Shown here piece by piece: positions 6,692 through 64,000 of a stretch of 64,000 bases of DNA. This stretch comes from Octopus vulgaris (Eukaryota). Both the position numbers and the translations under genes were made by a program. A model generated the notes under the pieces. That model saw only the letters and a list, made by a program, of their open reading frames with translations. It searched no databases and was not told the origin of the DNA. Location of the stretch: positions 93,620,001 to 93,684,000 of the forward strand of contig OX597818.1 in NCBI GenBank assembly GCA_951406725.2, given 5' to 3'. Positions within the stretch are counted from its first letter, which is position 1. Each line of letters begins with the position of its first letter.

Positions 6692-7137
6692 TGTATATAT
6701 ATATATAAATAAATGGAGTATGCGCATAGTGAGAGTGAGAGAGAAAGCGTGTGTGAATGAGTGTATAGGATATTGAGAGAGTGAGTGCATATTGTCTACC
6801 TGTGTCCTAATTACAAACAGGAAAGGAAGATGGCGACCACAGGTGAGTTTAAGGAAGTGACATATATACTGTGTCCTCACAAAACGGGACACCGTTCTTT
6901 ATTTGTTTCCATTTCTTATTTTATTTCTTACTTAAAACATTCTGAAGTTATTTACAGAAGGGAGTTCTATCTTTGAGAGCAAGAAATCAAAACTTTCCTA
7001 CGTCGTATACAGCAGTGTGTCTGGTACGTGTTGTTTCTATGGACTGCCCTATATGAATGACTAACTTTAATGTTTTGTATATTTGAAAGGATTTAGACGG
7101 ACTCGCTGAAATTTATATGAGAGAACGATCTGGATGT

Positions 7138-7597
7138 TGTAATTATAGAACTTTTAGTATAAGTCCGATACATTTGAAGCAAAATTCAAAACACGTTGAT
7201 TCCCAGGAATAATCAACATGAAAGAGAGGACCAAGAACTGGCCTTCTGAATTAGAGGTGGAGGACTGTGAACGTATTTTTAACGGGACACCGTTTGTAAT
7301 TATAGAACTTTTAGTATAAGTCCGATACATTTGAAGCAAAATTCAAAACACGTTGATTCCCAGGAATAATCAACATGAAAGAGAGGACCAAGAACTGGCC
7401 TTCTGAATTAGAGGTGGAGGACTGTGAACGTATTTTTAACGGGACACCGTTTGTAATTATAGAACTTTTAGTATAAGTCCGATACATTTGAAGCAAAATT
7501 CAAAACACGTTGATTCCCAGGAATAATCAACATGAAAGAGAGGACCAAGAACTGGCCTTCTGAATTAGAGGTGGAGAATTGTGAACGTATTTTTAAC
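7138..7597 (+). repeat. 157-bp tandem repeat, ~3 near-identical copies, inside a decayed Tc1-like remnant
   Basis: Identical ORFs 157 bp apart (7154 and 7311). RGPRT and LSIRQL-like peptides and a TIR-like TACTGTGTCC...AACGGGACACC at ~6868. Confidence 0.85.
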
Positions 7598-8058
7598 AGC
7601 CTCCGTTTGCTCAATCTCAATCAGACAACTTGAAGCGACCCAAAACTATAGTAAGAGATAGACGCCCAACATGACGAAATCAGCTAGACCCTATGACTTC
7701 ACTAATCTTACACACACACTATTCTGTAACGTATTACGGACTTTCCTGTTAGTTTTTAAAGACCCTCATTTTCTGATCAGAATGCACAAACACATATAAC
7801 CTTTTGCGATATACCCAACTACTACGTACACATATACATACACATATTTTTTGACTCTCACATAAAATATCACAATATGTATATATATATATTTGTATAC
7901 ATACATACGTATGTATGTATGTATGTGTGTGTGTATGTATGTATGTATGTGTCATCCATCTCAGCAAATGGGACATCTTTAAGATGATATATAAATATGT
8001 ATGTGGGTGTATATATTGGTGCAGCTAGACGACACTCACCCCTTCCTCCCTACCACAA

Positions 8059-10140: not shown

Positions 10141-10978
10141 ATGATGTTGTTTTGTTGTGAGTTCTTAGGAGATTCAAGGGATGATCACAGTCTGTGAAAA
10201 CAGTTCCTGTCTGTATTTGTGAGCCACCATATATGACTGGTGGCAGGTTGTCCTCGTGTTATGCCATCTTGCTGCATGATGCCCACAGACATGATCGAGT
10301 GCTACGAGGAAGCTGCTGGATTCTGGAACAGATTTCACCTGGAATTCACCATTGCCCTCCGGTTAGCTAGGTTGTGACCTTAGCACTACTGGTGTCAGAC
10401 CTTTCTGCCTTGGGTGGCCCTACCAGGGACTTGAAGCCAATGCATGTTACTGATCTCCAGAAGCTGGATGTCTTTGATTGCTTCTGTATTTGTCGCCTTC
10501 TTCAACTTTGTATCTCAGAATGTAATTTGAACTGAAAGCTTTAAGCTTGCTGAGGTTCTTCACCTCTTGAGGAAACTCTTCTGACGAGGAGACTACAGTG
10601 ATTTGGTCACATGTTGCAGCACCCCCCCCCATAACAAACTCATCTGGAAGACGATAGTTGCAGGTCCTCCCCTGGGTTAGCATAAGTGGAGAGGCAGTCA
10701 GCTGAAGATGTAATTCACTACAGTCAAAGCAGATATGGGACTCATTTCTAGCTCTCGAGTCTTTGGTGTGTGTTGCAGAATCAGCCACTGACAGACATGC
10801 GTGGACTACCTTGATCCATGATGTGGTGAACTCAATGGGAATCAGTTTAACCCCTCCTGGGTGAAATCTGTCAAAAGACATGAGAAGAACCATAATGTAG
10901 TTGATATTTTTTGATTTATATATATATGCATATATACATATACATGTATGCATATATATACATGCATATATATATATA

Positions 10979-11170
10979 GGTTAATCCAAACGGGAAAACA
11001 GAAAAAACAACACGTGGAACAATTACAGTATTATTATTATTAGGCTCTCAGGAAAATGGAAGTATGACGTTTCGAGCGGAGCTCTTCGTCGGAAACATAG
11101 GAGAAAGAAAGATCCCGAGACGGGAGGACAGAGGAAAAAAAATTGCAGGTAGTCTTCACGAGGTCACATA
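10979..11170 (-). mobile_element. Non-autonomous Penelope-like remnant with a minimal hammerhead-like motif
   Basis: Minus strand CCGACGA-A-GAGC-TCC-GCTC-GAAACGTC. The 3' end abuts (TA)n. Related copy at 46522-46712. Confidence 0.6.
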
Positions 11171-15850: not shown

Positions 15851-15881
15851 TACAGATTGAGTATAGATATATATACATACG

Positions 15882-15923
<42 letters not shown>

Positions 15924-15964
15924 TATATTCATGTAGATATACATGTGTGTACATATATACATAT

Positions 15965-16014
<50 letters not shown>

Positions 16015-16235
16015 TCATTATAGGGTGGCAAAAAAAATTTTTTAGAATTTTTTTGCCACCAGCGGCCTAGTGGGAAAAAATTAAATAGTCATAGACCATT
16101 TATAAGTTCAACATCACAATCAAGGAACGGCCATAATAGGCCATTCACCCACTAGAAATAACAGCCAAAGCTTCAACCGCAAAATAACATTAATTCCGTA
16201 AACCAGGAGAAAATTAAAAAAACATTTACCCTGTA

Positions 16236-16342
16236 ATTTCTTATACGATGCACCGTTTCATCTACTGTTTAATGGTAAACTAACCTGATTAAATTAAATC
16301 AAGCCAATCTTCCATAGGCCCTTAGATTCCTCAGTAAGAAAT
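16236..16342 (-). ncRNA. Type I hammerhead ribozyme, monomer 1 (also 16726-16832, 17215-17321, 17705-17811, 18197-18303, 18686-18792, 19178-19284)
   Basis: ATTTCTTA-CTGAGGA-ATCTA-[58 nt]-TAGAT-GAAA-CGGTGCATCG-TA/TAAGAAAT. Full CUGANGA/GAAA core, 8-bp stem I, 5-bp stem II, near-palindromic stem III and GUA cleavage triplet. Confidence 0.88.
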
Positions 16343-19300
16343 AGCCAGAACGGAACAGATATTTTCACGAGGCATTTCTGTCCCTGCCTCGGCAATATCT
16401 GACCTAAAATTTTCAAATCATCGCACTCGCGCCAAATTTATCGGCAGCAAATAAATATAAGCCACCGATTCCATTACGGAATCAACCAGAAAATTCGTAA
16501 TTAATCAATATAGGGTGGCAAAAAAGATTTTTTAGAATTTTTTTGCCACCAGCGGCCTAGTGGGAAAAAATTAAATAGTCATAGACCATTTATAAGTTCA
16601 ACATCACAATCAAGGAACGGCCATAATAGGCCATTCACCCACTAGAAATAACAGCCAAAGCTTCAACCGCAAAATAACATTAATTCCGTAAACCAGGAGA
16701 AAATTAAAAAAACATTTACCCTGTAATTTCTTATACGATGCACCGTTTCATCTACTGTTTAATGGTAAACTAACCTGATTAAATTAAATCAAGCCAATCT
16801 TCCATAGGCCCTTAGATTCCTCAGTAAGAAATAGCCAGAACGGAACAGATATTTTCACGAGGCATTTCTGTCCCTGCCTCGGCAATATCTGACCTAAAAT
16901 TTTCAAATCATCGCACTCGCGCCAAATTTATCGGCAGCAAATAAATATAAGCCGCCGATTCCATTACGGAATCAACCAGAAAATTCATAATTAATCAATA
17001 TAGGGTGGCAAAAACAATTTTTTAGAATTTTTTTGCCACCAGCGGCCTAGTGGGAAAAAATTAAATAGTCATAGACCATTTATAAGTTCAACATCACAAT
17101 CAAGGAACGGCCATAATAGGCCATTCACCCACTAGAAATAACAGCCAAAGCTTCAACCGCAAAATAACATTAATTCCGTAAACCAGGAGAAAATTAAAAA
17201 ACATTTACCCTGTAATTTCTTATACGATGCACCGTTTCATCTACTGTTTAATGGTAAACTAACCTGATTAAATTAAATCAAGCCAATCTTCCATAGGCCC
17301 TTAGATTCCTCAGTAAGAAATAGCCAGAACGGAACAGATATTTTCACGAGGCATTTCTGTCCCTGCCTCGGCAATATCTGACCTAAAATTTTCAAATCAT
17401 CGCACTCGCGCCAAATTTATCGGCAGCAAATAAATATAAGCCGCCGATTCCATTACGGAATCAACCAGAAAATTCATAATTAATCAATATAGGGTGGTAA
17501 AAAAAATTTTTTAGAATTTTTTTGCCACCAGCGGCCTAGTGGGAAAAAATTAAATAGTCATAGACCATTTATAAGTTCAACATCACAATCAAGGAACGGC
17601 CATAATAGGCCATTCACCCACTAGAAATAACAGCCAAAGCTTCAACCGCAAAATAACATTAATTCCGTAAACCAGGAGAAAATTAAAAAAACATTTACCC
17701 TGTAATTTCTTATACGATGCACCGTTTCATCTACTGTTTAATGGTAAACTAACCTGATTAAATTAAATCAAGCCAATCTTCCATAGGCCCTTAGATTCCT
17801 CAGTAAGAAATAGCCAGAACGGAACAGATATTTTCACAAGGCATTTCTGTCCCTGCCTCGGCAATATCTGACCTAAAATTTTCAAATCATCGCACTCGCG
17901 CCAAATTTATCGGCAGCAAATAAATATAAGCCGCCGATTCCATTACGGAATCAACCAGAAAATTCATAATTAATCAATATAGGGTGGCAAAAAAAATTTT
18001 TTAGAATTTTTTTTTGCCACCATCGGCCTTGTGGGAAAAAATTAAATAGTCATAGACCATTTATAAGTTCAACATCACAATCAAGGAACGGCCATAATAG
18101 GCCATTCACCCACTAGAAATAACAGCCAAAGCTTCAACCGCAAAATAACATTAATTCCGTAAACCAGGAGAAAATTAAAAAAACATTTACCCTGTAATTT
18201 CTTATACGATGCACCGTTTCATCCACTGTTTAATGGTAAACTAACCTGATTAAATTAAATCAAGCCAATCTTCCATAGGCCCTTAGATTCCTCAGTAAGA
18301 AATAGCCAGAACGGAACAGATATTTTCACGAGGCATTTCTGTCCCTGCCTCGGCAATATCTGACCTAAAATTTTCAAATCATCGCACTCGCGCCAAATTT
18401 ATCGGCAGCAAATAAATATAAGCCGCCGATTCCATTACGGAATCAACCAGAAAATTCATAATTAATCAATATAGGGTGGCAAAAAAAATTTTTAGAATTT
18501 TTTTGCCACCAGCGGCCTAGTGGGGAAAAAATTAAATAGTCATAGACCATTTATAAGTTCAACATCACAATCAAGGAACGGCCATAATAGGCCATTCACC
18601 CACTAGAAATAACAGCCAAAGCTTCAACCGCAAAATAACATTAATTCCGTAAACCAGGAGAAAATTAAAAAACATTTACCCTGTAATTTCTTATACGATG
18701 CACCGTTTCATCTACTGTTTAATGGTAAACTAACCTGATAAAATTAAATCAAGCCAATCTTCCATAGGCCCTTAGATTCCTCAGTAAGAAATAGCCAGAA
18801 CGGAACAGATATTTTCACGAGTCATTTCTGTCCCTGCCTCGGCAATATCTGACCTAAAATTTTCAAATCATCGCACTCGCGCCAAATTTATCGGCAGCAA
18901 ATAAATATAAGCCGCCGATTCCATTACGGAATCAACCAGAAAATTCATAATTAATCAATATAGGGTGGCAAAAAAAATTTTTTAGAATTTTTTTTTGCCA
19001 CCAGCGGCCTAGTGGGAAAAAATTAAATAGTCATAGACCATTTATAAGTTCAACATCACAATCAAGGAACGGCCATAATAGGCCATTCACCCACTAGAAA
19101 TAACAGCCAAAGCTTCAACCGCAAAATAACATTAATTCCGTAAACCAGGAGAAAATTAAAAAAACATTTACCCTGTAATTTCTCATACGATGCACCGTTT
19201 CATCTACTGTTTAATGGTAAACTAACCTGATTAAATTAAATCAAGCCAATCTTCCATAGGCCCTTAGATTCCTCAGTAAGAAATAGCCAGAACGGAACAG

Positions 19301-19889
19301 ATATTTTCACGAGGCATTTCTGTCCCTGCCTCGGCAATATCTGACCTAAAATTTTCAAATCATCGCACTCGCGCCAAATTTATCGGCAGCAAATAAATAT
19401 AAGCCGCCGATTCCATTATGGAATCAACCAGAAAATTCATAATTAATCAATATAGGGTGGCAAAAACAATTTTTTAGAATTTTTTTGCCACCAGCGGCCT
19501 AGTGGGAAAAAATTAAATAGTCATAGACCATTTATAAGTTCAACATCACAATCAAGGAAAAAAAATTGGTGGCAAAAAAATTCTAAAAAAAAAAAATTTT
19601 TTTTGCCACCCTATATTGATTGTGATGTTGAACTTGATTGTGATGTTGAACTTATAAATGGTCTATGACTATTTAATTTTTTGCCACTAGGCCGCTGGTG
19701 GCAAAAAAATTCTAAAAAATTATTTTTACCACCCTATATTGATTAATTATGAATTTTCTGGTTGATTCCGTAATGGAATCGGCGGCTTATATTTATTTGG
19801 CGCGAGTGCGATAATTTGAAAATTTTAGGTCAGATATTGCCGAGGCAGGGACAGAAATGCCTCGTGAAAATATCTGTTCCGTTCTGGCT

Positions 19890-19996
19890 ATTTCTTACTG
19901 AGGAATCTAAGGGCCTATGGAAGATTGGCTTGATTTAATTTAATCAGGTTAGTTTACCATTAAACAGTAGATGAAACGGTGCATCGTATAAGAAAT
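19890..19996 (+). ncRNA. Type I hammerhead ribozyme in the inverted monomer
   Basis: Same motif read on +: CTGAGGA 19898-19904, GAAA 19973-19976, predicted cleavage after 19988. Confidence 0.88.
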
Positions 19997-20114
19997 TACA
20001 GGGTAAATGTTTTTTTAATTTTCTCCTGGTTTACGGAATTAATGTTATTTTGCGGTTGAAGCTTTGGCTGTTATTTCTAGTGGGTGAATGGCCTATTATG
20101 GCCGTTCCTTGATT

Positions 20115-20151
<37 letters not shown>

Positions 20152-20479
20152 CATCCAGCTGTAGAAACACTGCCAGATCAGACTGGAGCCTGGTGCAGCC
20201 TCCTGGCTTTCCAGACCCCAGTCGAACCGTCCAACCCATGCTAGCATGAAAAATGGACGTTAAACGATGATGATGATGTTGATGATATATATGTAGTTGA
20301 CAGATGAGATACAGATGTTCTCTGTATAGAAGACATTTAGTAGTGCTCAAAAGATTCACAGTTACACTCCGATGTCTTTACAGGGGATCATTCCACAAGG
20401 TAAAGTAAGGCTATAAGGGGCATCACTGGTCACAAAGCATTTCTACAATATATATCTGTGTGTGTGTGTGAGTGTGTGA

Positions 20480-20667
20480 CACCATGATAGATCGTTAGCT
20501 ACTACACACATTTTTTTCTCTCCTTGTTTTTTCTGTGTACCTTTCTGTAGAAGAGCGTAGGCTCGAAACGTAAAAGACTTTTTCTATTCCTGAGCGCTAT
20601 ACTAATACATCTGTTTGTTTGTACACCACCTGCCTTTGTCTTTTGTTTATTTTCGTAAACTTTCCCT
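20480..20667 (+). mobile_element. Non-autonomous Penelope-like remnant with a degenerate minimal hammerhead
   Basis: CTTT-CTGTAGA-A-GAGC-GTAG-GCTC-GAAACGTA-AAAG, with one core mismatch. The 3' end runs into (TA)n. Confidence 0.55.
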
Positions 20668-22427
20668 TTATATATATATATATAGCCTGAGTATAAATTT
20701 AGTAAAGTGAACTTATTCGTAGCAGATGTTCTCTTGACATCGTTCACACACCTAACTCAAGCTCAGAATTTACATCCCGAGTTGTTATCTAAAGTTGTGA
20801 AAATTAAAAGTAATTCAAATTTAATGTGTTCTTGTAACAATAAATTTCCATAGAGATTAGGGTTTAAATTTATGAACAGTTTCCGTCCTGCATTATTCTT
20901 AAAGGAATGAAAAATTATCCAGCAACTTGGGCTAAAATGAACAAGCCTTGTAGGTGTAAAAGACTAACTGGCATCTCTTGTCAAGGGTGCAGGTGACAGT
21001 CAGAGCACTGATGTTTGTTGTGCACTCCACTGTTGTTATTTGATTGCTGCTTTTCTGTGTGTCTGTATGTAAAGATCAATTGTGTTTTGCAGGGTTGCTT
21101 TAGTTTTACCCTTAACTTAGACATGGAGAAAGATATAGTGCTAGATATAAAAAAAATAAGCCATTTGGGGCTAGAAATATTGTGGAAAATGTGAAATTCT
21201 TTGAGTAGGCATGTATTTTATGTGAAATCTGTTATGAACCCAAGTGATGAAATCTGCAATGAGCTCAAGTGATGAAATCTGGGATGAGCCTGAGTGACGC
21301 TGAAGAACTGGTGTAACCTCTGGTATAAATATGTGTGTGTGTGTGTGTGAGTGTGAGAGAGAGAGTCTGTGTGTGTGTGTGGTCATAGGGAAATATTACC
21401 TTACTTGGAGACAAGTGAGGGTTGTTAACAAGAAGAATGTCTGGCATACAAATTCTGCCTCAATGAAATCCATCTAACCCATGTAAACATAGAAAAATGG
21501 ACGTTAAAACAATGATAATGATCATGATGATGATGATAAATTAGAGATATATACTCTGGTCTTTAGATCTCCTCTAACATATGACTTTAGTCTTTCAAAT
21601 TAGTTACAAATGAGGTTAGTTGAGCTTGTTAATGTATATCTAATTACAATTAGATACAATTTAAAAGAGAGAGAGAGAGAGAAAGAGAGAGTACAGTCAT
21701 TAACTTCTTTGAAAATCTGTAGCTAAGAATCGCAGACAACGTTTATTGTGAATCCAATTGTGGACAAGGATTTTACCCTTGAACTCACTGGACACATGAT
21801 TTATTTATATCTTTTGTAAAGAATCTCTCATTCTTTTGTCCATTAAAGTTATTGTAAAGAACCTCCCTCTCTTTCTCCTCTCTCTTTTTTGTTCTTTAAT
21901 CATCATCATCATCATCATCGTTTAACGTCCGCTTTCCATGCTAGCATGGGTTGGAAGGTTCAACTGGGGTCTGGAAAGCCAGGAGGTTGCACCAGGCCCA
22001 GTCTGATCTGGCAGTGTTTCTACAGCTGGATGCCCTTCCTAATGCCAACCACTCCATGAGTGTAGTGGGTGCTTTTTACATGCCACCAGCACAGGTGCCA
22101 GGCAAGGCTGGCAATGGCCACGATCGGATGGTGCTTTAATGATTTTGTAAATAATTTTTTAAACTCAATCATGACTATTTGAATATTCTTAAGGTAACAT
22201 TTCAATGTTTGTCACTGTTATTTCAGATATTTAATGCCCACTTTTGCTTTCACCTTTTGGAACATATTGATTATATTCAGCAAGCTAGAGCACTTTTCAA
22301 TATCATATATATTTATACACACACACATATATATGTGTGTGTATGTTACTTCATTGCTTCCTCAACTCTCTTTCTTTCTCTCTTTCTTCCTCTGATATAT
22401 GTATGTGTGTGTGTGTGTGTGTGTGTA

Positions 22428-22790
22428 TTAGGTTGTTTCACATGAAATGTCATATTTGAAAGGTAACAATAAAATGTTTCAGAAGTGTTAGAGAACTGAT
22501 TTATTTAATCAAAGTATGATCCATGTTCATTTATGACATTTACCCAACGTTTCTCTATCTCATATATTCCATCTTTAAAAAGAAATTCATCTTTTGCTGT
22601 GATAAATTGTCTGAATGCTTCAATTACCTCTTCTCTATTTAATAATATTTTATTGCTTATGAAACGCTCAAAATGCTTAAATAAGTCATGATCAGTAGGA
22701 GAAAGATCAGGGGAATAGGGAGGATGTTGCAAAATCTCATAATTCAGGCTTTGCAACTTTTGAACTGTAGCTTGGTAAGTAAACTTTTTA
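22428..22790 (-). mobile_element. mariner 3' fragment
   Basis: LQHPPYSPDLSPTDH.LFKHF...GI....RW..VI...GSYFD, plus a terminal TIR. Confidence 0.85.
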
Positions 22791-22934
22791 ACCACATAGC
22801 CATGTTTCAACTTGTTGTTCCCATGGTGCAAATTGAATCTAGGTGAAAGCCAGGATCCTCATCTCTTTTTTTTTCACTTTTATGTTTTTTACAGTCTTTG
22901 CACTGTGACTGGTGTTGTTTGCAGAAAGAAACTG

Positions 22935-23079
22935 ATGATGACAATGAAGAAGATGGAGAAGGTGATTTGCTTGAAGTATTTGACTGCGGTGATATACATC
23001 GCTCTTCTACCTAAAGTTAATAGCCAAAATGGTGGAAATACAAATGTTATCAGACCTGATGTTACTGAAAGTATTACAT
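22935..23079 (+). CDS. Type I membrane protein (CUB-like ectodomain), coding exon 1: signal peptide
   Basis: MMTMKKMEKVICLKYLTAVIYIALLPKVNSQ... Acceptor TTGCAG ends at 22924 and donor GTATGT starts at 23080. Phase 1 joins the 27537 exon in frame (..ESIT-Y-YLDK..). Confidence 0.75.
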
Positions 23080-23219
23080 GTATGTATACATTACTTTGAT
23101 AATTACTTTTGTTTTGGTATTAATTTGTTAATTTATGCTGATGGTTCATGTAGGATTTGTGTATTTAAGATTAGATAGTTGATGAGAAGTAAAATTAAAC
23201 CCTCAGGCGAGGTTTACTA

Positions 23220-24452
23220 TCAGGTCATTAAGAATGAAATGTCTGATTTTCTTATGCACCAAGTTTGACAGTCACTAACTTTAATGACAATTCTTTGTTT
23301 TACAACATTGAAGAGTTACATCATCACTTTTCAAAATGCAATTCATAGGTTTTCTCTTGAAAATCAATTTTTGTGAACCCATGGATAAATAAAAAATTTA
23401 TGTTGTTTATGAATATGAGTTCCGTTGTGAAACCAATGCATCAATAAGGTGTTTGGTGAAGATGTGGCAAATGAGCGGACTGTATGTTGATGGTCTGAGA
23501 AGTTCCAGTCTGGTGACTTTACTCTTGAAAATCAGCCTCGTGGTATACCTGAGACCAAGGTGGATAATGAGGTGCTGGGACCTGTAGTGGAGGTAGATAC
23601 ATCTCAAACTATGCATAAGTTAGCAGCAATGTTCGATGTTTTGATTCCAACTGTACTGGGCCATCTGAAATAAATCAGCAAGGTAAAGAAGCTGAACAAG
23701 TAGGTACCACACCAACTGAATGAGCATCAAATGACACGTCGTCTTGAAACTTGCAGTTCTTTGCTGTCACAGCATAAAAGCGAACCATTTTTGCATCATA
23801 TTGTTTTGTGTGATGGAAAATGGATTCTTTTCAACAATAGCAAGTGTTCTGCACAGTGGTTGGATAGAGACAAAGTGCCAAAACACAATCAAAAAAAGAA
23901 TATTCACCACAAAAATCGATTGTCTATTTGATGGTCTAGCACTGGTGTCAGCCATTACAGCTTCATGAGACCTGATAAGTCAATTACAGTGGATGTATAC
24001 ATCAACCAAGTGGATGAAATAATGAATGAGTTTGCAATTAAACAACTGAGATTAGTCAATAGAGACAGGCCAAGTCTCTTGTAAAACATGCTCGACCACA
24101 TGTTGCACAAAGAACGCTACTCAAATTACAAGAACTGAACTTGAAAGTACTCTGTCATCCACCATATTCACCAGACTTTGCACCAACTGATTATCATGTT
24201 TTCCAGGCTTTAGACAACTTTTTGCAAGGAAAAAACTTCAAACCTGAAGAAGATGCAAAAATATCTATTGCGATTTCATCACCTCTTGCTCTCCAGAATT
24301 CTTTGCTGCTGGCATAAATAAGCTGCTGATAAAATGGCAAAATTGTGTCAATAATTTAGGTGCATACTTTGATTAACTGCATTGCTTTTTGTTGAGATGA
24401 ACTAAAATAAACTTTCTGTTCAAAATTGGACATTTCATTCTTAATGACATGA
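23220..24452 (+). mobile_element. Full-length but decayed mariner (DD34D) element
   Basis: TIRs TCAGGTCATTAAGAATGAAATGTC / GACATTTCATTCTTAATGACATGA with TA flanks. VPHQL, CDGKWI and HPPYSPDFAPTDY motifs interrupted by stops. Confidence 0.9.
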
Positions 24453-24887: not shown

Positions 24888-24942
<55 letters not shown>

Positions 24943-24945
<3 letters not shown>

Positions 24946-26552
24946 TTGCGGTCAAAATGTTCAGAACGGCATTGTTTTCGTCAGAAAAGTAGGCATAAGT
25001 TTTTATCAAAGTTGTTTTATATTCTATAATTTTCACAGACAATAAATACAATATTATTTGTTATTGCCTGAGAATTTGGTGTAATTTAAGAGGATAATAC
25101 AAAAGTTATGGATGATTTAGTGATTTACTGCAAAACCCATGGCGGCCAAAATGATCAGAACAGTTGCTTTTACTCCGTGTTTTAGTATATTTAACCGGCG
25201 AACTCTAATGTTTTGAATTTGTTTATGTGACGGTTCATTTACTAAACATTAGTAAGAATATTTGCAGTGTACTTTGTTAATATAATGCCACTTACTCCGT
25301 TACCAATTCGTCAGCAGATTATTAAGCTTCGAAAGAAGGATAATTTAAGTATTGGATCTATTGCAAAGATTGTTAACAAGTCAAAAAGTGTTGTACACGG
25401 TATTCTTAAGGTCTACGATGATAGTGGTTCGTGTGAAGCAAGAAAATTTACAGGTAGGCCAAGAAAAACGACCAAGAGAGAAGATCCTGCAATGGTAAAG
25501 TTGGTTAAAAAGGACAGATTTAAAACTGCTGCTGCTGTTTCTCGGAAAATGAGCATTGTATTGAAGAAAACTTTATCTCGAAAAACTGTATCTCGTCGTT
25601 TAGTTGAACATGACCTACAAGCAAGAGCACCTGCAGTGAAGCCACTGATCAGCTCCAAGAATAAAAAGTGTCGTCTTACCTTTGCAACCAAACATGTGTT
25701 GTGGTCTCAAGAAAAATGGCAAACGATGCATTTCAGTGATGAATCTAAGTTTATGTTATTTGGTTCAGATGGGAAAAGTAGGTGAAAAATTGTTGCCTAA
25801 ATGCCTTAAGACTAGTGTTAAATTTGGTGGAGGAAGTGTCATGGTTTGGGGTATGATATCTGGAGATGGTGTGGGCCCTTTGGTGCGATTACATGAAAAG
25901 GTAAATGCAGGAGTTTATAAACAACTTGTAAAAGATCATGTCTTGCCTGTGCTGAGAAATTTAACTAAGCGACCACCCATATTCATGCAGGACAATGCCC
26001 CATGTCACAAGGCTAAGGTGGTCATATACTTCCTCAAGGCTGAAAAGGTTATTGTTATGGATTGGCCTGCTCAAAGCCCAGATCTCAATCCTATTGAAAA
26101 TGTGTGGAATATTCTAGGAGAACGTTCGAAAGCCAGAAATCCTAAAACTGCTGAGCAATTATGGAATGCCCTTCAGGAAGAATGGAATAAGATCACCCAG
26201 CAAGAAATTGAAAATTTAATTTCCTCATGCAGTCGAAGATGTCAGAGTGTGATTGAAGCCAAAGGGCTTCACACTAAATATTAAATAATTCCAGTATTCT
26301 CTGTCATTTTTGATTATTTTGTTATTTTTTTCAACCGTTCTGATCATTTTGGCCACCATGGGTTTTGCAGTAAATCACTAAATCATCCATAACTTTTGTA
26401 TTATCCTCTCAAATTACACCAAAATCTCAGACAATAACAATTAATATTGTATTTATTGTCTGTGAAAATTATAGAATATGAAACTACTTTGATAAAAAAG
26501 TATATCTACTTTTCTGACGAAAACAATGCCGTTCTGAACATTTTGGCCGCAA

Positions 26553-26555
<3 letters not shown>
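24943..26555 (+). mobile_element. Tc1 (DD34E) transposon with ~220-bp IR/DR-type TIRs; transposase 25285-26284 frameshifted near 25780
   Basis: CAGTTGCGGTCAAAATG...CATTTTGGCCGCAACTG inserted in (TA)n. Motifs GRPRK, FSDESKF, QDNAPCH and SPDLNPIE with 34 aa between D and E. Confidence 0.95.
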
Positions 26556-26604
<49 letters not shown>

Positions 26605-27536
26605 CTATATATATATAGTGACTTACATGAATACTATGACTTCAATGATTCTGCATGCCACTTCTCTCCAGGGGCACTGTACTACCGGTAATATTTTGTT
26701 AATTTGCTGGCTTTAAATTTCCCTTAAATGTCCCTTGGAAAGGGATGGCCTCCTCTGCTGATGTTGGGAGATATGTACCCAGCGACACTGACTAATAATT
26801 TACCATATTGATATGAAAAGGCATGAACTCCACCACAGTAACTTAACACTCTTCCACATCAACATGAAGAGGCAGGCTGTTGTTACTTAACTCTAGGTGT
26901 GCTCTAATCAAGCAGACCTATGATTAATAATAGCATTCCTGCCCTCCTGTCTTTTTCCTACAGTATAGTCCCCTTCTCTTGTAAAAGTTGGTCCTTGTGA
27001 ATTGTTACAAAGAAATTGATATTTTCATTTAATTTTGTCCACTTTATAGAGAACACAGGATCCCATTATCCAACATATTCTTTTTAAGATAGTTGGTTCT
27101 ATTTCCAGAAGATCAAGCAACCATGCAGAGGCTCCTTTACTCCAGTATGCTAACATAGTACTCCACCATACTGACATGTATTCAATCATACCACTTAACT
27201 GGTTTTCTTCATATACTTTATACAAAGGTGAAGAGTGGTACATCTATGATCTTATCAGTTGTGAGAATCACAGAACCCCATACAATAGTTGGTCAAATAC
27301 CTTTTATGCAGCTGACTCCGATGGTAATAGTATCAATGTATTATTGATATGATGGGTTACTTGATTTTGAAATTAGGGACTAAAACTAGAGTTCACTATA
27401 CCCTTTTAATATACCAGAAGAAATATGATTTTCTCTTAAGAAAGAAATCGGTCTTCTAGCCATTTATAAGTTATTGTTTGATTTTTATTTAAATTTTGTA
27501 TTCCATTCTTATAAATTTATATTTGTTAAATTTCAG

Positions 27537-34731: not shown

Positions 34732-34946
34732 CAGTTGGCCAAATGCTATTTTGGAAGATATTCAAAATGCCATGTAGTGGTACTGAACCTGAATCCACCT
34801 GGTTGTGGAATGAAACTCTTAACCTCACAGCCAAGCATATGCACGTGCACACACACACACACACTGCACAAGTAAGATTTTTTCTTTAGGAAGATTGCCA
34901 AAGAATGTTGCTTAACAAACCTTTGTTTTTTTTTTCCATGTTTCAG

Positions 34947-35312
34947 ACCCTACGTCTGGAGGTGGTGGAGGTATTGACCATGGTGTATTGGACCCTGACA
35001 AAAGTTATCTCCGAAAGTTTTCAACTGACACCATCATAATCCTAATATCTGTTGCTTATCTCGTAGCCATTTTAATATGTATTATTATTTTAATTGTACG
35101 CTGCGTGAGATCTTCAAGGGAAGAGAAGAAATATTCAGAACGGCCTCTAGCCTACAATAATTATGGTTTAACGCCTGCCACTTCAGTGAATTCATCAGTT
35201 ATGAGTGTATATGCCACTAAACCATCCTCAGATATTAAATCTATTGGTAGAAACAAGTCATTCAGGTCAAGAATGGCCAATTCCACTGAGGACACTGACA
35301 GCGTTTTTGAAG
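34947..35312 (+). CDS. Membrane protein coding exon 4 (Gly linker, TM helix, juxtamembrane tail)
   Basis: AG/GT boundaries, phase 1/1. IIILISVAYLVAILICIIILIV is followed by basic RCVRSSR. Confidence 0.9.
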
Positions 35313-35698
35313 GTAATTCCTTTTTTTTGTGTGTGTGTGTGTGTCTTTCTTTTAAATGCTTTCTTGTAAATTTATTACTGATGTAACGGTAATGGAATTA
35401 TTTTTAAGTGGACAGGTTGCAGTTGTCAGGCAAAAGCTTGATGAATTTTTTTTTCACAAGATGGAATATGTCAGAGTTGTGTGAAGGAACAACTGAAGCT
35501 GAGAATGAAGAAAAAAGAAGATTCTCAGAAAACTGTAGTGAAATAATCATTGACTGGTTGGCGTGGTTACAACTACTGATCTGACGTGTTGAGTGCATGG
35601 ATATGTAATAACATAGAAATGAGATTGGATTGTTGAAGTTATTGAATTTTGTAACTGAATGAGTGGTATAAGTTCCTGCAACAAGTTGATTTTAGTTA

Positions 35699-38275: not shown

Positions 38276-39362
38276 CAGTACTGTTTTGGTTCAGTACTGT
38301 TTGGGTTCAGTACTGTTTGAGCATGTCGATACCAATGTGATCTCCAATGAACATTTGATGAAGTGGGAGCACCATGGGTGAATTGATCTAGATGTTTGCT
38401 ACAAAATGAATTCCACAAAAAGCTCCCATGACTATGTCACGGTGTTAACAGCAATGTTAGGCATACCACCTATCTATACTGAGTTAGGTATAAAGAAGAC
38501 TAGCAAGGCCCAGATCACAGTAATGTTTGTTGTAATGATCTAATGGTGACATCTCCATTAAAGACAAAAGCATTTTATACAGGAGGCACAATGGCCCAGT
38601 GGTTAGGGCAGCGGACTCGCAGTTTCGATTCCCAGACCGGACGTTGTGAGTGTTTCTTGAGTGAAAACACCTAAAGCTCCATGAGGCTTTGGCAGGGGGG
38701 GGTGGCGATCCCTGCTGTACTCAAACGGCGGTGCATCAGCATGGCCGCAGCTCTGAGCTGAAACTTTAAAACAAACAAAAAAAACAGGAGTTATTTTTGC
38801 TTCCTAGGTATCTCAGTAGCACTAAGAGTGATCTGACAACACACACACACACACATTTTGTATATATCATCATTGTCATCACTATTATAACATTTATATT
38901 TTCATACTTATTTGACTTCTTACAGCCAAATGCTCTTTTTCTTGCTAACCCTCATCTGTTTCCAAACAAGGGAATGTTTTCTCCTCGTGTCAGAGTGTTT
39001 TCCCTGGATATTGTGAACTGCTTCACTTGTGAGGCCTTGATGCTTGCTTAGAATTAGCACATAATATTAAAACAATGAGACAGCACATATCCATACATAT
39101 TTTGAGTGGTAGGCTTAACCCATCATTTGGTTTAACGTCATCTCATGGTATGTCAGATGTTTTTAGTGGAATATTTAATATAGTTATAGTGTGTATGTAT
39201 TTATATTTGTATATGTAGTAAATAAGAAGTATACACTGTAGAATCTCTGATTATATATAATTATATCTGTATTTAACAACATATAATACTGTTGTTGAGA
39301 ACAATTGTGTCTGTGAGCAGATTGTAATGTATTTCTTTATTTTTTTTAATTTTTTGTTGAAG

Positions 39363-40282
39363 CAATGCAATCAAACATGAAGGCACAGCTAAATGCACCC
39401 TCTTCTTACTCAAGTTCTTACAATAACCCATCCTACCAACGGACACCTCCTACTAAAAGAATGTCTGGTCGAAGAACTGCCTTCCAGAATGAAGCATCTG
39501 CTGCTGTCCGTACATCAAGAGGTCACAGAAGAAACCATGAGACTGCTGTCAAAGAAGTAAACAAACCCGTTGAGTCTGTGAAATCATCTGTATCACAACA
39601 AATACAGACAGATTTATATGATGACGACGATGGTGGTGAGGTGACAAGTGAAGTTGAGTTGGCTTCAACTGGGATGAACACTGACCCAGAAATGACTGAT
39701 CATGGTATTCAATGTGAGGTTGAAACTAGTGATGATATCATCAATTCAGATGAAGTTAATGCGATTTCTAAGCAGGCATTTGAATACCTGAAGCAGCACA
39801 AACATTTACAAAGCCCTTCATTGTCACATCCTCATGGCACAGTGAGTGATGATGAGATGGGGCAGAAGTATGAACATAATCGATACTACTATCCTGCACA
39901 GCAGGGTCTGCATGGCTCCCCAGCCATGCATCGCTTTGCTCATCCCATGGAGCAATATGGCTCTCCTGAACCACACACTCTTCATTTTGATCCTGCTTTA
40001 AGACAGACGAATATTACTCCACCCAGTTACATGTTAAGGGCCAATGGTTATGGACCACAAAGAGGTCCTAAGCCACCAGTTCTGACTGACTTGGAGGACC
40101 GATACATACCAGTCTATTCTTATTTAGTAAACCGAGGCTACAAAATTCCTGAATCTGACAAAAATGCTTCTGGAAGCTCAGCAACAGGAACAAGCCATCA
40201 TTCAGATTTGAGAATGGTTCAGACAGATGATTCCGATTTCTCTGCAAATTTGGATAGTGGTGTTGAACTGATGAAAAGATGA
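39363..40282 (+). CDS. Membrane protein terminal coding exon (cytoplasmic tail)
   Basis: Poly-T tract and AG at 39361-39362, phase 1 matching exon 4. 305-codon open frame; spliced CDS of 1803 nt = 600 aa. Confidence 0.9.
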
Positions 40283-46521: not shown

Positions 46522-46526
<5 letters not shown>

Positions 46527-46712
46527 ATCCAAACATGAAAACACAAAGAGAAAACAACGCGAGGACATGGAACAAGTATAGTGTTACTGGATGCTCAGGA
46601 AAGGAAAGAAAGAAGGAGGATTTAATGTTTCGAGCAGAGCTCTTCGTCAGAAACATAAGAAAAGGAAAGATGGAGGAAAAAAATTGCCAATGGTACACAC
46701 GCGGTCACACAC
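46522..46712 (-). mobile_element. Non-autonomous Penelope-like remnant with a minimal hammerhead motif
   Basis: TTT-CTGACGA-A-GAGC-TCT-GCTC-GAAACATT-AAA. The 3' end abuts (TA)n. Same family as 10979-11170. Confidence 0.6.
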
Positions 46713-59652: not shown

Positions 59653-61036
59653 AAGAATGAAATGTCCAATTTTGAACAGAAAGTTTATTTTAGTTCATCT
59701 CAACAAAAAGCAATGCAGTTAATCAAAGTATGCACCTAAATTATTGACACAATTTTGCCATTTTATCAGCAGCTTATTTATGCCAGCAGCAAAGAATTCT
59801 GGAGAGCAAGAGGTGATGAAATCGCGATAGATATTTTTGCATCTTCTTCAGGTTTGAAGTTTTTTCCTTGCAAAAAGTTGTCTAAAGCCTGGAAAACATG
59901 GTAATCAGTTGGTGCAAAGTCTGGTGAACATGGTGGATGACAGAGTACTTTCAAGTTCAGTTCTTGTAATTTGAGTAGCGTTCTTTGTGCAACATGTGGT
60001 CGAGCATGTTTTACAAGAGACTTGGCCTGTCTCTATTGACTAATCTCAGTTGTTTAATTGCAAACTCATTCATTATTTAATCCAATTGGTTGATGTATAC
60101 ATCCACTGTAATTGACTTACCAGGTCTCATGAAGCTGTAATGGCTGACACCAGTGCTAGACCAACAAATAGACATTCGATTTTTGTGGTGAATATTCTTT
60201 TTTTGATTGTGTTTTGGCACTTTGTCTCTATCCAACCACTGTGCAGAACACTTGCTATTGTTGAAAAGAATCCATTTTCCATCACACAAAACAATATGAT
60301 GCAAAAATGGTTCGCTTTTATGCTGTGACAGCAAAGAACTGCAAGTTTCAAGACGACGTGTCATTTGATGCTCATTCAGTTGGTGTGGTACCTACTTGTC
60401 CAGCTTCTTTACCTTGCTGATTTATTTCAGATGGTCCAGTACAGTTGGAATCAAAACATCGAACATTGCTGCTAACTTATGCATAGTTTGAGATGTATCT
60501 ACCTCCACTACAGGTCCCAGCTCCTCATTATCCACCTTGGTCTCAGGTATACCACGAGGCTGATTTTCAAGAGTAAAGTCACCAGACTGGAACTTCTCAG
60601 ACCATCAACATACAGTCCGCTCATTTGCCAAACACCTTCACCAAACACCTTATTGATGTTTTTAGTTGTCTGTGATGCATTGGTTTCACAACGGAACTCA
60701 TATTCATAAACAACACAAATTTTTTATTTATCCATGGGTTCACAAAAATTGATTTACAAGAGAAAACCTATGAATTGCATTTTCAAAAGTGATGATGTAA
60801 CTCTTCAATGTTGTAAAACAAAGAATTGTCATTAAAGTTAGTGACTGTCAAACTTGGTACATAAGAAAAGCAGACATTTCATTCTTAATGACCTGATAGT
60901 AAACCTCGCCTGAGGGTTTAATTTTACTTCTCATCTACTATCTAATCTTAAATACACAAATCCTACATGAACCATCAGCATAAATTAACAAATTAATACC
61001 AAAACAAAAGTAATTATCAAAGTAATGTATACATAC

Positions 61037-61191
61037 ATGTAATACTTTCAGTAACATCAGGTCTGATAACATTTGTATTTCCACCATTTTGGCTATTAAC
61101 TTTAGGTAGAAGAGCGATGTATATCACCGCAGTCAAATACTTCAAGCAAATCACCTTCTCCATCTTCTTCATTGTCATCATCAGTTTCTTT
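61037..61191 (-). pseudogene. Duplicated signal-peptide exon of the membrane-protein gene (orphan copy)
   Basis: By eye identical to 22925-23079, with both splice sites intact. No CUB exons follow it on this strand. Confidence 0.7.
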
Positions 61192-61684
61192 CTGCAAACA
61201 ACAGCAGTCACAGTGCAAAGATTGTAAAAAACATAAAAGTGAAAAGAAAAGAGATGAGGATCCTGGCTTTCACCTAGATTCAATTTGCCCCATGGGAACA
61301 ACAAGTTGAAACATGGCTATGTGGTTAAAAGGTTTACTTACCAAGCTACAGTTCAAAAGTTGCAAAGCTTGAATAATGAGATTTTGCAACATCCCCCCTA
61401 TTCCCCTGATCTCTCTCCTACTGATCATCACTTATTTAAGCATTTTGAGCTTTTCATAAGCAATAAAATATTATTAAATAGAGAAGAGGTAATTGAAGCA
61501 TTCGGACAATTTATCACAGCAAAAGATGAATTTCTTTTTAAAGATGGAATATATGAGATAGAGAAACGTTGGGTAAATGTCATAAATGAACATGGATCAT
61601 ACTTTGATTAAATAAATCAGTTCTCTAACACTTCTGAAACATTTTATTGTTACCTTTCAAATATGACATTTCATGTGAAACAAC

Positions 61685-61714
<30 letters not shown>

Positions 61715-61715
<1 letters not shown>

Positions 61716-62751
61716 CATCATCATCATCATTTAACGTCCGCTTTCCATGCTGGCATGGGCTGGACGGTTTGACTGAGGTCTGGCGAACCAGACTCCAGTC
61801 TGATCTGGCAGAGTTTCTACAGCTGGATGCCCTTCCCAACGCCAACCACTCTGAGAGTGTAGTGGGTGCTTTTATGTGCCACCGGCATGAGGGGCCTGTT
61901 TGGTGGTACTGGCAACGGCCACCCCCAAATGGTGCTTTTTACGTGCCACCCACACAGGAGCGAGTCCAGCGGCACTGGCAAATACCTTGCTCGAATATTT
62001 CACATGTCACCGGCACAAGTGCTGGTAAGGCGATGCGGTAACGATCACACTTGAATGGTGTGCTTAACGTGCCAACAGCACAGAGGCCAGCTTGTTGCTC
62101 TGGCAGCGATCTCACTCGTATGGTACTCTTAGCGGTCCACTAGCAACGGATGCCAGTCACTGAATTTGATTTCAACTTCGACTTCACTTGCCTCAACTGG
62201 TCTTCACAAGCAGGGTTTAGTGTCCAATGAAGAAAAGGCACGCATAAGTGGACTGGTTACACCCCTAGCATAGGTTATGGTCACACTTGCGCTTGTCGAG
62301 TCTTCTGCAGCACAGCATATTTCCAGAGGTCCCGGTCACTAGTCATTGCCTCGGTGAGGCCCAATGTTTGAAGGTCATGCTTCACCACCTCATCCCAGGT
62401 CTTCCTGGGTCTACCTCTTCCACTGGTTCTCTCAACTGCTAGGGTGTGGCACATTTTCACATGGTTATCGACATCCATTCTCGCCACATGACCATACCAG
62501 CGCAATTGTCTCTCTTGCACACCACATCTGATGCTTCTTAGGTCCAACCTTTCTCTCAGGGCACTAACACTCTGTTGAGTATGCACACTGACATTACACA
62601 TCCATCGGAGCATGCTGGTTTCATTCCTTGTAAGCTTACGCCTATCCTCAGCAGTCATGGCCCATGTTTCACTGCCATGTAGCATGGCTGTTCGTACACA
62701 TGCGTCGTACAGTCTACCTTTTACTCTGAGCGAGAGGCCCGTTGTCACCTG
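61715..62751 (-). mobile_element. 5'-truncated RTE-clade LINE (open RT C-terminus + 3' UTR + (ATG)n tail)
   Basis: GLSLRVKGRLYDACVRTAMLHGSETW...LRWYGHVARM...GRGRPRKTW, stop at 62281. Absent from the left duplication arm. Confidence 0.92.
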
Positions 62752-64000
62752 TATATATATATATACACACACATACACATATACAAGAGAAAGCGAGAGA
62801 GAGAGAGGGAGAGAGAGAGAGAAAGAAAGAGTTGAGGAAGCAATGATGTAACATATATACACATATATATGTAGGTGTGTGTATAAATATATATGATATT
62901 GAAAAGTGCTCTAGCTTGCTGAATATAATCAATATGTTCCAAAAGGTGAAAGCAAAAGTGGGCATTAAATATCTGAAATAACAGTAAAAAACATTGAAAT
63001 GTTACCTTAAAAATATTAAAATAGTCATGATTGAGTTTTAAAAATTATTTACAAAATCATTAAAGCACCATCCGATCGTGGCCGTTGCCAGCCTCGCCTG
63101 GCACCTGTGCTGGTGGCATGAAAAAAGCACCCACTACACTCATGGAGTGGTTGGCATTAGGAAGGGCATCCAGCTGTAGAAACACTGCCAGATCAGACTG
63201 GGCCTGGTGCAGCCTCCTTGCTTTCCAGACCCCAGTTGAACCGTCCAACCCATGCTAGCATGGAAAGCGGACGTTAAACGATGATGATGATGATGATTAA
63301 AGAACAAAAAAGAGAGAGGAGAAAGAGAGGGAGGTTCTTTACAAAAACTTTAATGGACAAAAGAATGAGAGATTCTTTACAAAAGATATAAATAAATCAT
63401 GTGTCCAGTGAGTTCAAGGGTAAAATCCTTGTCCACAATTGGATTCACAATAAACGTTGTCTGCGATTCTTAGCTACAGATTTTCAAGTAAGTTAATGAC
63501 TGTACTCTCTCTCTCTCTCTCTCTCTTTTAAATTGTATCTAATTGTAATTAGATATACATTAACAAGCTCAACTAACCTCATTTGTAACTAATTTGAAAG
63601 ACTAAAGTCATATGTTAGAGGATGTCTAAAGACCAGAGTGTATATCTCTAATTTATCATCATCATCATCATCATCATCATTATCACAATCATCATCAATG
63701 TTTTAACGTCCATTTTTCTATGTTTACATGGGTCAGATGGATTTCATTGAGACAGAATTTGTATGCCAGACATTCTTCTTGTCTCCAAGTAAGGTAATAT
63801 TTCCCTATGACCACACACACATACACACACTCACACACATACACACACAGACACACACACATATATTAGAGATGACACCAGTTCATCAGCGTCACTCAGG
63901 CTCATCACAGATTTCATCACTCAAGCTCATTGCAGATTTCATCACTCAGGCTCATCACAGATTTCACATAAAATACATGTAGGTATTTTCCACAATATTT

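What the first reader, a model, noticed from the sequence alone, without database searches (positions are those of the whole stretch)
19443..20148. Array geometry points to reverse transcription of a circular RNA with a Penelope-style 5' inversion
Seen: neither array end coincides with the ribozyme cleavage site. The RNA 3' end (16009) abuts (TA)n, like the PLE remnants in this window. The other end flips orientation through a scrambled junction (19560-19635, short duplicated pieces) into one inverted monomer with a ~15-bp microhomology deletion near 19800, then (TA)n. Established: PLE insertions often carry inverted 5' segments and PLEs are the proposed mobilisers of retrozymes. Inference: one rolling-circle RT event with template switching made the array. 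The inversion also provides a ~0.5-kb fold-back dsRNA and a ribozyme on both strands.
Basis: partly seen in the sequence, partly recalled or inferred. Interest (0 to 1): 0.7.

Follow-up and report, generated by a model that had tools for sequence, protein, structure and literature searches.

The report
Ribozyme repeat primed from both ends
This is one insertion of a young, protein-free repeat with a predicted self-cutting RNA motif; across the genome its back-to-back arms begin at two fixed points, one of each per insertion, exactly as in a Penelope-type jumping gene of the same genome, which likely copied both arms from one RNA, probably a circle.

Summary
The anatomy is real: 7.27 units of 489 nt (16008-19559), a scrambled junction, one inverted unit with a 15-nt deletion, and (TA)n on both sides. 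Each unit holds a type I hammerhead motif, and neither end lies at its cut site. The inversion is the family norm, not an assembly chimera: 57 of 81 loci are two-armed. The predicted variable start points are wrong: 131 of 138 RNA 3' ends lie at two fixed sites 103 nt apart, and all 52 typable two-armed copies have one of each. An intact Penelope-like element (PLE) in the genome follows the same rule, 8 of 8. Arms share haplotype (10 of 904 sites discordant; 25% when shuffled) and cross the cut site without scars. The inverted arm is therefore most likely a second priming on the same RNA, not a template switch. A circular template is favoured (about 55%) over an uncleaved linear multimer (about 30%). 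Cleavage, circles, the partner enzyme and this junction in reads are untested. It is a new non-LTR retrozyme family, and this scan already reported this pattern on other DNA of this genome.

The parts
15862..16009 (.). TA-rich microsatellite, pure (TA)16 at 15978-16009: left half of the likely target
16008..19559 (-). Arm A: 7.27 tandem units of ~489 nt, 36% GC, no ORF of 50 aa or more inside the array. RNA sense is the minus strand; the RNA 3' end is at fixed site A (phase ~1, 16008-16010) and the inner end at phase 118
16010..16112 (-). 103-nt 'tail' between priming site A (phase 1) and priming site B (phase 104); holds a long hairpin at phases 15-51. Present at this end of the insertion only
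16236..16342 (-). Type I hammerhead motif of unit 1: 8-bp stem I, CUGAGGA, stem II enclosing 68 nt, GAAA, near-palindromic stem III, predicted cut after GUA at 16244. Repeated in units 2-7 (CUGA at 16824, 17313, 17803, 18295, 18784, 19276)
19560..19633 (.). Scrambled junction: A-run, inverted copy of phases 52->4 (19567-19621), 12-nt repeat of phases 108->97. Reads as a short slip-back and a jump from site B to site A through a shared AATCAA (inferred)
19633..20119 (+). Arm B: one inverted unit (phase 115 to phase 104, one turn plus 11 nt). Its outer end is at fixed site B, abutting (TA)n
19799..19800 (+). 15-nt deletion between two CAAAT copies (5-nt microhomology)
19890..19996 (+). Hammerhead motif of the inverted unit; predicted cut after 19988
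20119..20148 (.). (TA)15: right half of the likely target, followed by a 5'-truncated copy of a dispersed repeat

Best explanation
This is one insertion of a young non-coding hammerhead repeat (non-LTR retrozyme) whose two back-to-back arms start at two fixed points 103 nt apart and share one haplotype; a Penelope-like RT/endonuclease likely nicked both strands of a (TA)n run and copied the same RNA, probably a 489-nt circle, from both points. Shown: fixed sites A and B, one of each per two-armed copy; (TA)n at the RNA 3' ends; haplotype identity of the arms; read-through of the ribozyme cut site; the same rule in an intact PLE of this genome. Inferred: each target strand primes at one site (a dimeric enzyme with two registers), and each RT runs round the template with strand displacement (7.27 turns and 1.0 turn here). 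The two cDNA ends are then joined head to head, usually through a few nt of microhomology, here through a ~75-nt patch of slips and jumps. Long arrays are later reshuffled by DNA-level exchange between units. Odds: PLE-type two-site priming about 85%; circular template about 55-60%.
For: Ends: 81 loci, 57 two-armed; 52 A+B, 0 A+A, 0 B+B, 5 with an eroded end (0.5^52 = 2e-16). 131 of 138 RNA 3' ends lie at A or B, and 119 of 138 abut at least 80% TA/AT, against 8 of 24 5' ends of one-armed copies. An older family of ~463 nt (about 66% identical) has the same geometry: 11 clear A+B pairs among 28 loci by my reading, with covarying hammerhead stems. An intact 781-aa RT + GIY-YIG element targets (TA)n, has a ~40-nt tail, and 8 of 8 inverted copies among 35 loci have one tailed and one tail-less end. 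One template: 10 of 904 informative sites differ between arms against 25% (minimum 18%) in 2000 shuffles; 18 locus-private variants are fixed in all units, 15 of them in both arms; 48 fixed haplotypes occur among 79 loci. In-register unit-level departures: 1 shared by both arms, 97 not, so the template was nearly homogeneous. Cut site: 254 crossings, 1 of 131 inner ends there (4.0 expected); 1 indel in 261 units against 1.1% background. 65 of 67 A arms run past site B. PMC11167929: a PLE protein nicks and extends both strands, starts internally at two sites that bound the 'tail', and is predicted to be a dimer.
Against: 42 variants are carried by some but not all units of a locus, 7 of them across both arms; L047 alternates with dimer period and L031 fits a linear multimer. 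A strict monomer circle needs post-insertion conversion to explain these. PMC11167929 found uncleaved RNA the main substrate in vitro and no reads ending at the hammerhead cut. The retrozyme has no sequence match to the pLTR of the intact PLE or to the other GIY-YIG loci, apart from one 53-nt retrozyme fragment in L138 (that output was cut, so only its head and tail were seen); the partner is not identified. No donor-daughter pair showing a unit singleton becoming fixed was found. Inner ends are not enriched just past site B (10 of 131, 8.3 expected), and the excess past site A (19 against 8.0) coincides with a strong hairpin, so stalling at the own primer is not shown. Cleavage, circles and expression are untested.
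Confidence: 0.58

Rival explanations
1. Same two-site PLE priming, but the template is an uncleaved linear (or oligomeric) multi-unit transcript from a few homogeneous donor arrays; no monomer circle is needed.
For: Unprocessed RNA was the dominant substrate for a PLE in vitro (PMC11167929). 8 of 9 predicted Xenopus retrozyme dimers did not cleave (10.64898/2026.07.22.740005). Partial variants shared across arms in L031, L044, L047, L067 and L046 fit multi-unit templates. Absence of ends and scars at the cut site is equally expected.
Against: It needs transcripts that survive up to 14 hammerheads (L043). It does not by itself fix new variants in every unit, yet 18 private variants are fixed and 48 haplotypes occur in 79 loci. 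Only 1 of 98 in-register unit-level departures is shared by both arms.
Confidence: 0.28
2. A single RT makes the array and then folds back or switches template, and the second end is cut at site B by the endonuclease.
For: In this window both inner ends lie at nearly the same phase (118 and 115) and the junction holds templated pieces. Same-phase inner ends occur in 8 of 56 loci against 2.4 expected. Craig et al. (10.1101/2021.04.23.441226) ascribe the tail to endonuclease resolution.
Against: 48 of 56 junctions join unrelated phases, 41 of 56 with a gap of 3 nt or less, so most are not fold-backs. Either arm can be the long one, and A and B occur equally often as the only end (13 and 11 of 24 one-armed copies). 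Both outer ends abut (TA)n.
Confidence: 0.08
3. A single unit inserted, then expanded as a satellite by unequal exchange, and the inversion is a later DNA rearrangement.
For: Long arrays (L043, L048, L068, L111, L118) show patchy shared variants typical of DNA-level exchange. The 2026 preprint suggests local amplification for retrozymes.
Against: Later rearrangement cannot give fixed, paired outer ends in 52 of 52 loci. The window's units differ only by singletons outside homopolymers. Copies are dispersed short arrays on many contigs, not satellite blocks.
Confidence: 0.04
4. The inversion is an assembly chimera of a collapsed repeat.
For: The junction was not bridged by any listed contig and no long reads were available.
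Against: 57 loci with different flanks and junctions obey the same A+B rule, share private variants across arms, and an unrelated PLE follows the same rule.
Confidence: 0.02

Closest known systems
Metazoan non-LTR retrozymes (Cervera and de la Pena 2020, PMC7229834, passages read; Li, Clavereau and Pollet 2026, 10.64898/2026.07.22.740005, parts 1-3 of 5 read, supplements closed)
   Same: Low-GC non-coding tandem units, one type I hammerhead each, dispersed dimers to multimers, PLEs in the same genome. The circle-to-tandem-cDNA route and PLE mobilisation are proposed in these papers.
   Different: 489-nt unit with a 68-nt stem II region; 70% of sampled copies two-armed with fixed, paired ends in (TA)n. 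The parts I read report no such insertion footprint. No homology to a PLE pLTR was found here, unlike 24 of 57 Xenopus families matched to Repbase elements, nearly all PLEs.
Endonuclease-bearing Penelope-like elements: inverted 5' copy and one-sided 'tail' (Craig et al. 2021, 10.1101/2021.04.23.441226, passages; Arkhipova et al. 2013, PMC3846280, passages; Frangieh et al. 2024, PMC11167929, parts 1-2 of 4)
   Same: (TA)n or AT-rich targets, head-to-head inverted arms, tail at one end only, internal initiation at two sites away from the hammerhead cut.
   Different: No ORF; the tail is 103 nt rather than 30-40; both arms are multi-unit. Frangieh et al. saw no difference in start site between strands in vitro, whereas the genomic copies here show a strict one-of-each pairing.
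LINE-1 twin priming (recalled, not from a call)
   Same: Both target strands prime on one RNA and the cDNAs join by microhomology. This window alone fits: arm A ends 14 nt past site B.
   Different: The second priming site is fixed, and the first arm is not stopped by it: 5 of 67 A arms end at phases 100-130, 4.2 expected.

Membership tests
Non-LTR retrozyme | Tandem short units, each with a type I hammerhead motif | tested here: met
   7 of 7 full units plus the inverted unit; 560 exact matches of a 31-nt hammerhead stretch genome-wide, 0 for the reversed control; stems covary with family 2. Not detected by Rfam at gathering threshold.
Non-LTR retrozyme | Non-coding, low GC | tested here: met
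   GC 0.36; no ATG ORF of 50 aa or more inside the array, only two at the right flank
Non-LTR retrozyme | No LTR, primer-binding site or polypurine tract | not tested
   No LTR-type ends seen in 81 loci; PBS/PPT not searched
Non-LTR retrozyme | Self-cleavage of the transcript | not testable with these tools
   The hammerhead fold is 1.5 kcal/mol above the minimum-energy fold of the same 107 nt; no assay
Non-LTR retrozyme | Accumulates as circular RNA | tested here: inconclusive
   No holder on record as RNA; four runs guessed to be RNA hold contigs over the whole unit, which cannot show strand, ends or circularity
Non-LTR retrozyme | Homology to the pLTR of an autonomous PLE | tested here: inconclusive
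   No match to the 781-aa family or the other GIY-YIG loci among 45 tested; only 150 of 6136 GIY-YIG candidates were scored
PLE-type insertion | (TA)n / AT-rich target at the RNA 3' ends | tested here: met
   119 of 138 ends
PLE-type insertion | Inverted 5' arm, head to head | tested here: met
   57 of 81 loci
PLE-type insertion | Two start sites; tail at one end only | tested here: met
   52 of 52 typable pairs; 8 of 8 in the intact PLE
PLE-type insertion | Target-site duplication | tested here: inconclusive
   Masked by (TA)n on both sides; no empty allele recovered
LINE-1-type twin priming | First arm ends where the second primer annealed | tested here: not met
   5 of 67 A arms end at phases 100-130, 4.2 expected; this window is one of the five

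The most novel reading that the evidence does not exclude
A dimeric Penelope-like enzyme binds one small ribozyme-derived RNA circle at two registered start sites, primes one from each strand of a nicked (TA)n run, and both subunits roll round the same circle, writing a whole two-armed array in one step. The strict one-tail-per-insertion rule would then explain the inverted structure of Penelope-like elements in general.
Probability: 0.5. Interest if true: 0.72.

Novelty: new member of a known kind. Interest (0 to 1): 0.5.

Why it matters
How animal retrozymes get back into DNA, and why Penelope-like insertions are inverted with a tail at one end, are both stated as open in the papers read (10.64898/2026.07.22.740005; 10.1101/2021.04.23.441226). 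This family gives genomic footprints for both: fixed paired start sites, clonal arms and scarless passage through the ribozyme cut. It also supplies a defined 489-nt RNA and an intact candidate enzyme for an in vitro test. I found no paper describing this footprint for a retrozyme in seven searches of the held library, which lacks most subscription papers. The pieces (retrozymes, PLE tails, two-site initiation) are each known.

Tried and rejected
Rfam scan: no hit. Laying four DNA or unclassified runs on 19300-20900: only short contigs, none listed bridging the junction, no empty allele; uninformative. No RNA holder listed; four runs guessed to be RNA cover the unit, but their kind is unverified, so they are not used as evidence of expression. 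Partner search: no sequence match between the retrozyme and the intact 781-aa PLE or other GIY-YIG loci; other hammerhead-like motifs beside GIY-YIG loci were not followed. 'RT stalls at its own primer after whole turns' looked attractive in the first 40 loci but was not supported at site B, and at site A it is confounded by a hairpin. End-to-end jumping between cleaved linear monomers was rejected: no scars or stops at the cut and no haplotype mixing. Donor-daughter pairs: none clean. Sequence look-up in earlier findings: nothing. Rows dropped: L122 and L133 (degraded) from the variant and inner-end counts, segments under 88% identity, homopolymer columns and phases 20-45, and a second element cut by the edge of L125.

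Full report
Observation. The window holds 7.27 tandem units of 489-492 nt at 16008-19559, a junction at 19560-19633, one inverted unit at 19633-20119, and (TA)n on both sides. The units are 36% GC and non-coding. On the minus strand each carries a type I hammerhead motif: 8-bp stem I, CUGAGGA, a stem II enclosing 68 nt, GAAA, a near-palindromic stem III and a GUA cut triplet. Rfam did not detect it; support comes from the motif scan and from stems that covary with an older sister family. Counting phase 1 from 16990, the cut is at phase 234/233 and the outer ends are at phases ~1 and 104. The 15-nt deletion lies between two CAAAT copies.

Family census. The window is G000:C5:93620001-93684000. 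A unit search gave 1394 candidates, 40 scored; a 31-nt hammerhead stretch has 560 exact matches. I examined 81 loci: the window and 39 others (biased to full units and the young haplotype), 16 from an 81-nt internal query, and 25 from the first 100 listed pattern matches. 57 are two-armed. Of 138 RNA 3' ends, 66 lie at site A (phases 476-6), 65 at site B (94-112) and 7 elsewhere; 119 abut TA-rich sequence. Of the 57 two-armed loci, 52 have one A and one B end, none has A+A or B+B, and 5 have an eroded end. The sister family shows the same pattern in 11 clear pairs among 28 loci (my reading; that query favoured site A starts).

Link to Penelope-like elements. Craig et al. (passages) and Arkhipova et al. 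(passages) describe an inverted 5' copy and a 30-40 bp tail usually at one end only. Frangieh et al. (parts 1-2 of 4) show that a PLE protein nicks and extends both strands and starts internally at two sites that bound the tail. This genome has a young intact RT + GIY-YIG element that ends in (TA)n with or without a ~40-nt tail. Among 35 loci, all 8 inverted copies have one end of each kind. The retrozyme thus carries the PLE footprint with a 103-nt tail. It has no sequence match to that element, so the partner is a candidate, not identified.

One template or two. At 27 informative variants the two arms differ at 10 of 904 comparisons, against 25% when arms are shuffled among 54 loci. 18 variants private to one locus are fixed in all its units, 15 in both arms. 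79 loci carry 48 fixed haplotypes. Where both arms cover the same unit index, 1 departure from the locus type is shared and 97 are not. 65 of 67 A arms run past site B, so the two cDNAs overlap on the template, and classical twin priming, where the second primer stops the first RT, is not the general rule. The arms cross the cut site 254 times; 1 of 131 inner ends lies there, and 1 of 261 spanning units has an indel there. The template was continuous across the cut and effectively a single haplotype.

Circle or linear multimer. A monomer circle explains the fixed private variants directly, because every insertion passes through one unit. Against a strict version: 42 variants occur in some but not all units of a locus, 7 across both arms. 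L047 alternates with a period of two units and L031 reads like a linear multimer. These could be multi-unit templates or exchange after insertion; 35 of the 42 lie within one arm and cluster in long arrays, which favours later exchange. The in vitro PLE used uncleaved RNA, and 8 of 9 Xenopus dimers did not cleave. I put the circle at 55-60% and the linear multimer at about 30%. An apparent stall after whole turns did not survive the larger sample at site B and coincides with a hairpin at site A.

This locus. Arm A began at site A (16010) and ran 7.27 units. Arm B began at site B (20119) and ran one turn plus 11 nt. The junction reads as a 12-nt repeat, a jump to site A through a shared AATCAA, about 50 nt of the tail hairpin, and an A-run (the order of events is inferred). 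Most junctions in the family are simpler: 41 of 56 have a gap of 3 nt or less. The window's units differ only by singletons outside homopolymers. Both inner ends fall just past site B, so taken alone this locus also fits fold-back or classical twin priming; the family data decide against those as the general route. The fold-back (501 predicted pairs) and the plus-strand ribozyme are by-products with no evidence of expression. No read data bridged the junction or showed an empty allele.

Novelty. Non-LTR retrozymes, the proposal that PLEs copy their circles into tandem cDNA (PMC7229834, passages) and their descent from pLTRs (2026 preprint, parts 1-3 of 5; supplements closed and may bear on insertion sites) are in print. 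I found no paper with this insertion footprint for a retrozyme. This scan has already reported the same pattern on other DNA of this genome, for this ~489-nt family and for 360-nt and 534-nt families. Those notes are unchecked, arrived after my end analysis and are not used as support; they name the animal as an octopus, which I did not test. Verdict: a new member of a known kind, with unusually clear evidence on mechanism; interest 0.5.

Noticed in passing
L181:1636-2415 (G000:C2:195238639) and loci L187-L215: An older sister retrozyme family (~463 nt, about 66% identical) with the same hairpin-and-tail layout and a covarying hammerhead (cut after GUC). In L181 it sits directly beside a copy of the young family in one (TA)n run.
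   Followed up: partly
L166-L180, L246-L265 (e.g. G000:C6:133343000-133352000): A young (TA)n-targeting Penelope-like family with an intact 781-aa RT + GIY-YIG ORF, an upstream 479-aa frame without Pfam match, a ~500-nt pLTR without a canonical hammerhead, and a ~40-nt tail. Its Zn-finger-like linker resembles Neptune/Nematis as described by Craig et al.; the clade was not tested.
   Followed up: partly
window 10978-11120 and 46522-46690, minus strand: PLE-like 3' remnants abutting (TA)n with a minimal hammerhead-like motif; the first has C instead of U at the second core position.
   Followed up: partly
L048, L068, L043, L111, L118: Long arrays carry mosaic, mutually incompatible shared variants among units, suggesting DNA-level exchange after insertion (or haplotype mixing in the assembly).
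   Followed up: partly
L133:1760-2160: One arm of a retrozyme copy is peppered with short TA runs replacing its own sequence; may be a polishing artefact or repeated switching onto (TA)n.
   Followed up: no
window 7137-7609: 157-bp unit repeated 2.9 times at 99% identity inside another repeat; no hammerhead motif found.
   Followed up: no
window 21210-24442 and 59653-63979: A ~3.2-kb inverted duplication (92-97% identical) about 35 kb apart, including a transposase-like fragment.
   Followed up: no
window 24890-26617: TA-flanked element with ~280-bp inverted ends and two overlapping transposase-like frames (Tc1/mariner-like by eye, not searched).
   Followed up: no
window 34916-35383 and 39350-40279, + strand: Two open frames that look like host exons (one with a hydrophobic, membrane-like stretch); whether the array lies in an intron of this gene was not examined.
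   Followed up: no
window 20148-20290: The dispersed repeat right of the (TA)n lacks about 60 nt of 5' sequence present in its other window copies, and the missing part is not on the left flank; a target-site deletion cannot be excluded.
   Followed up: no
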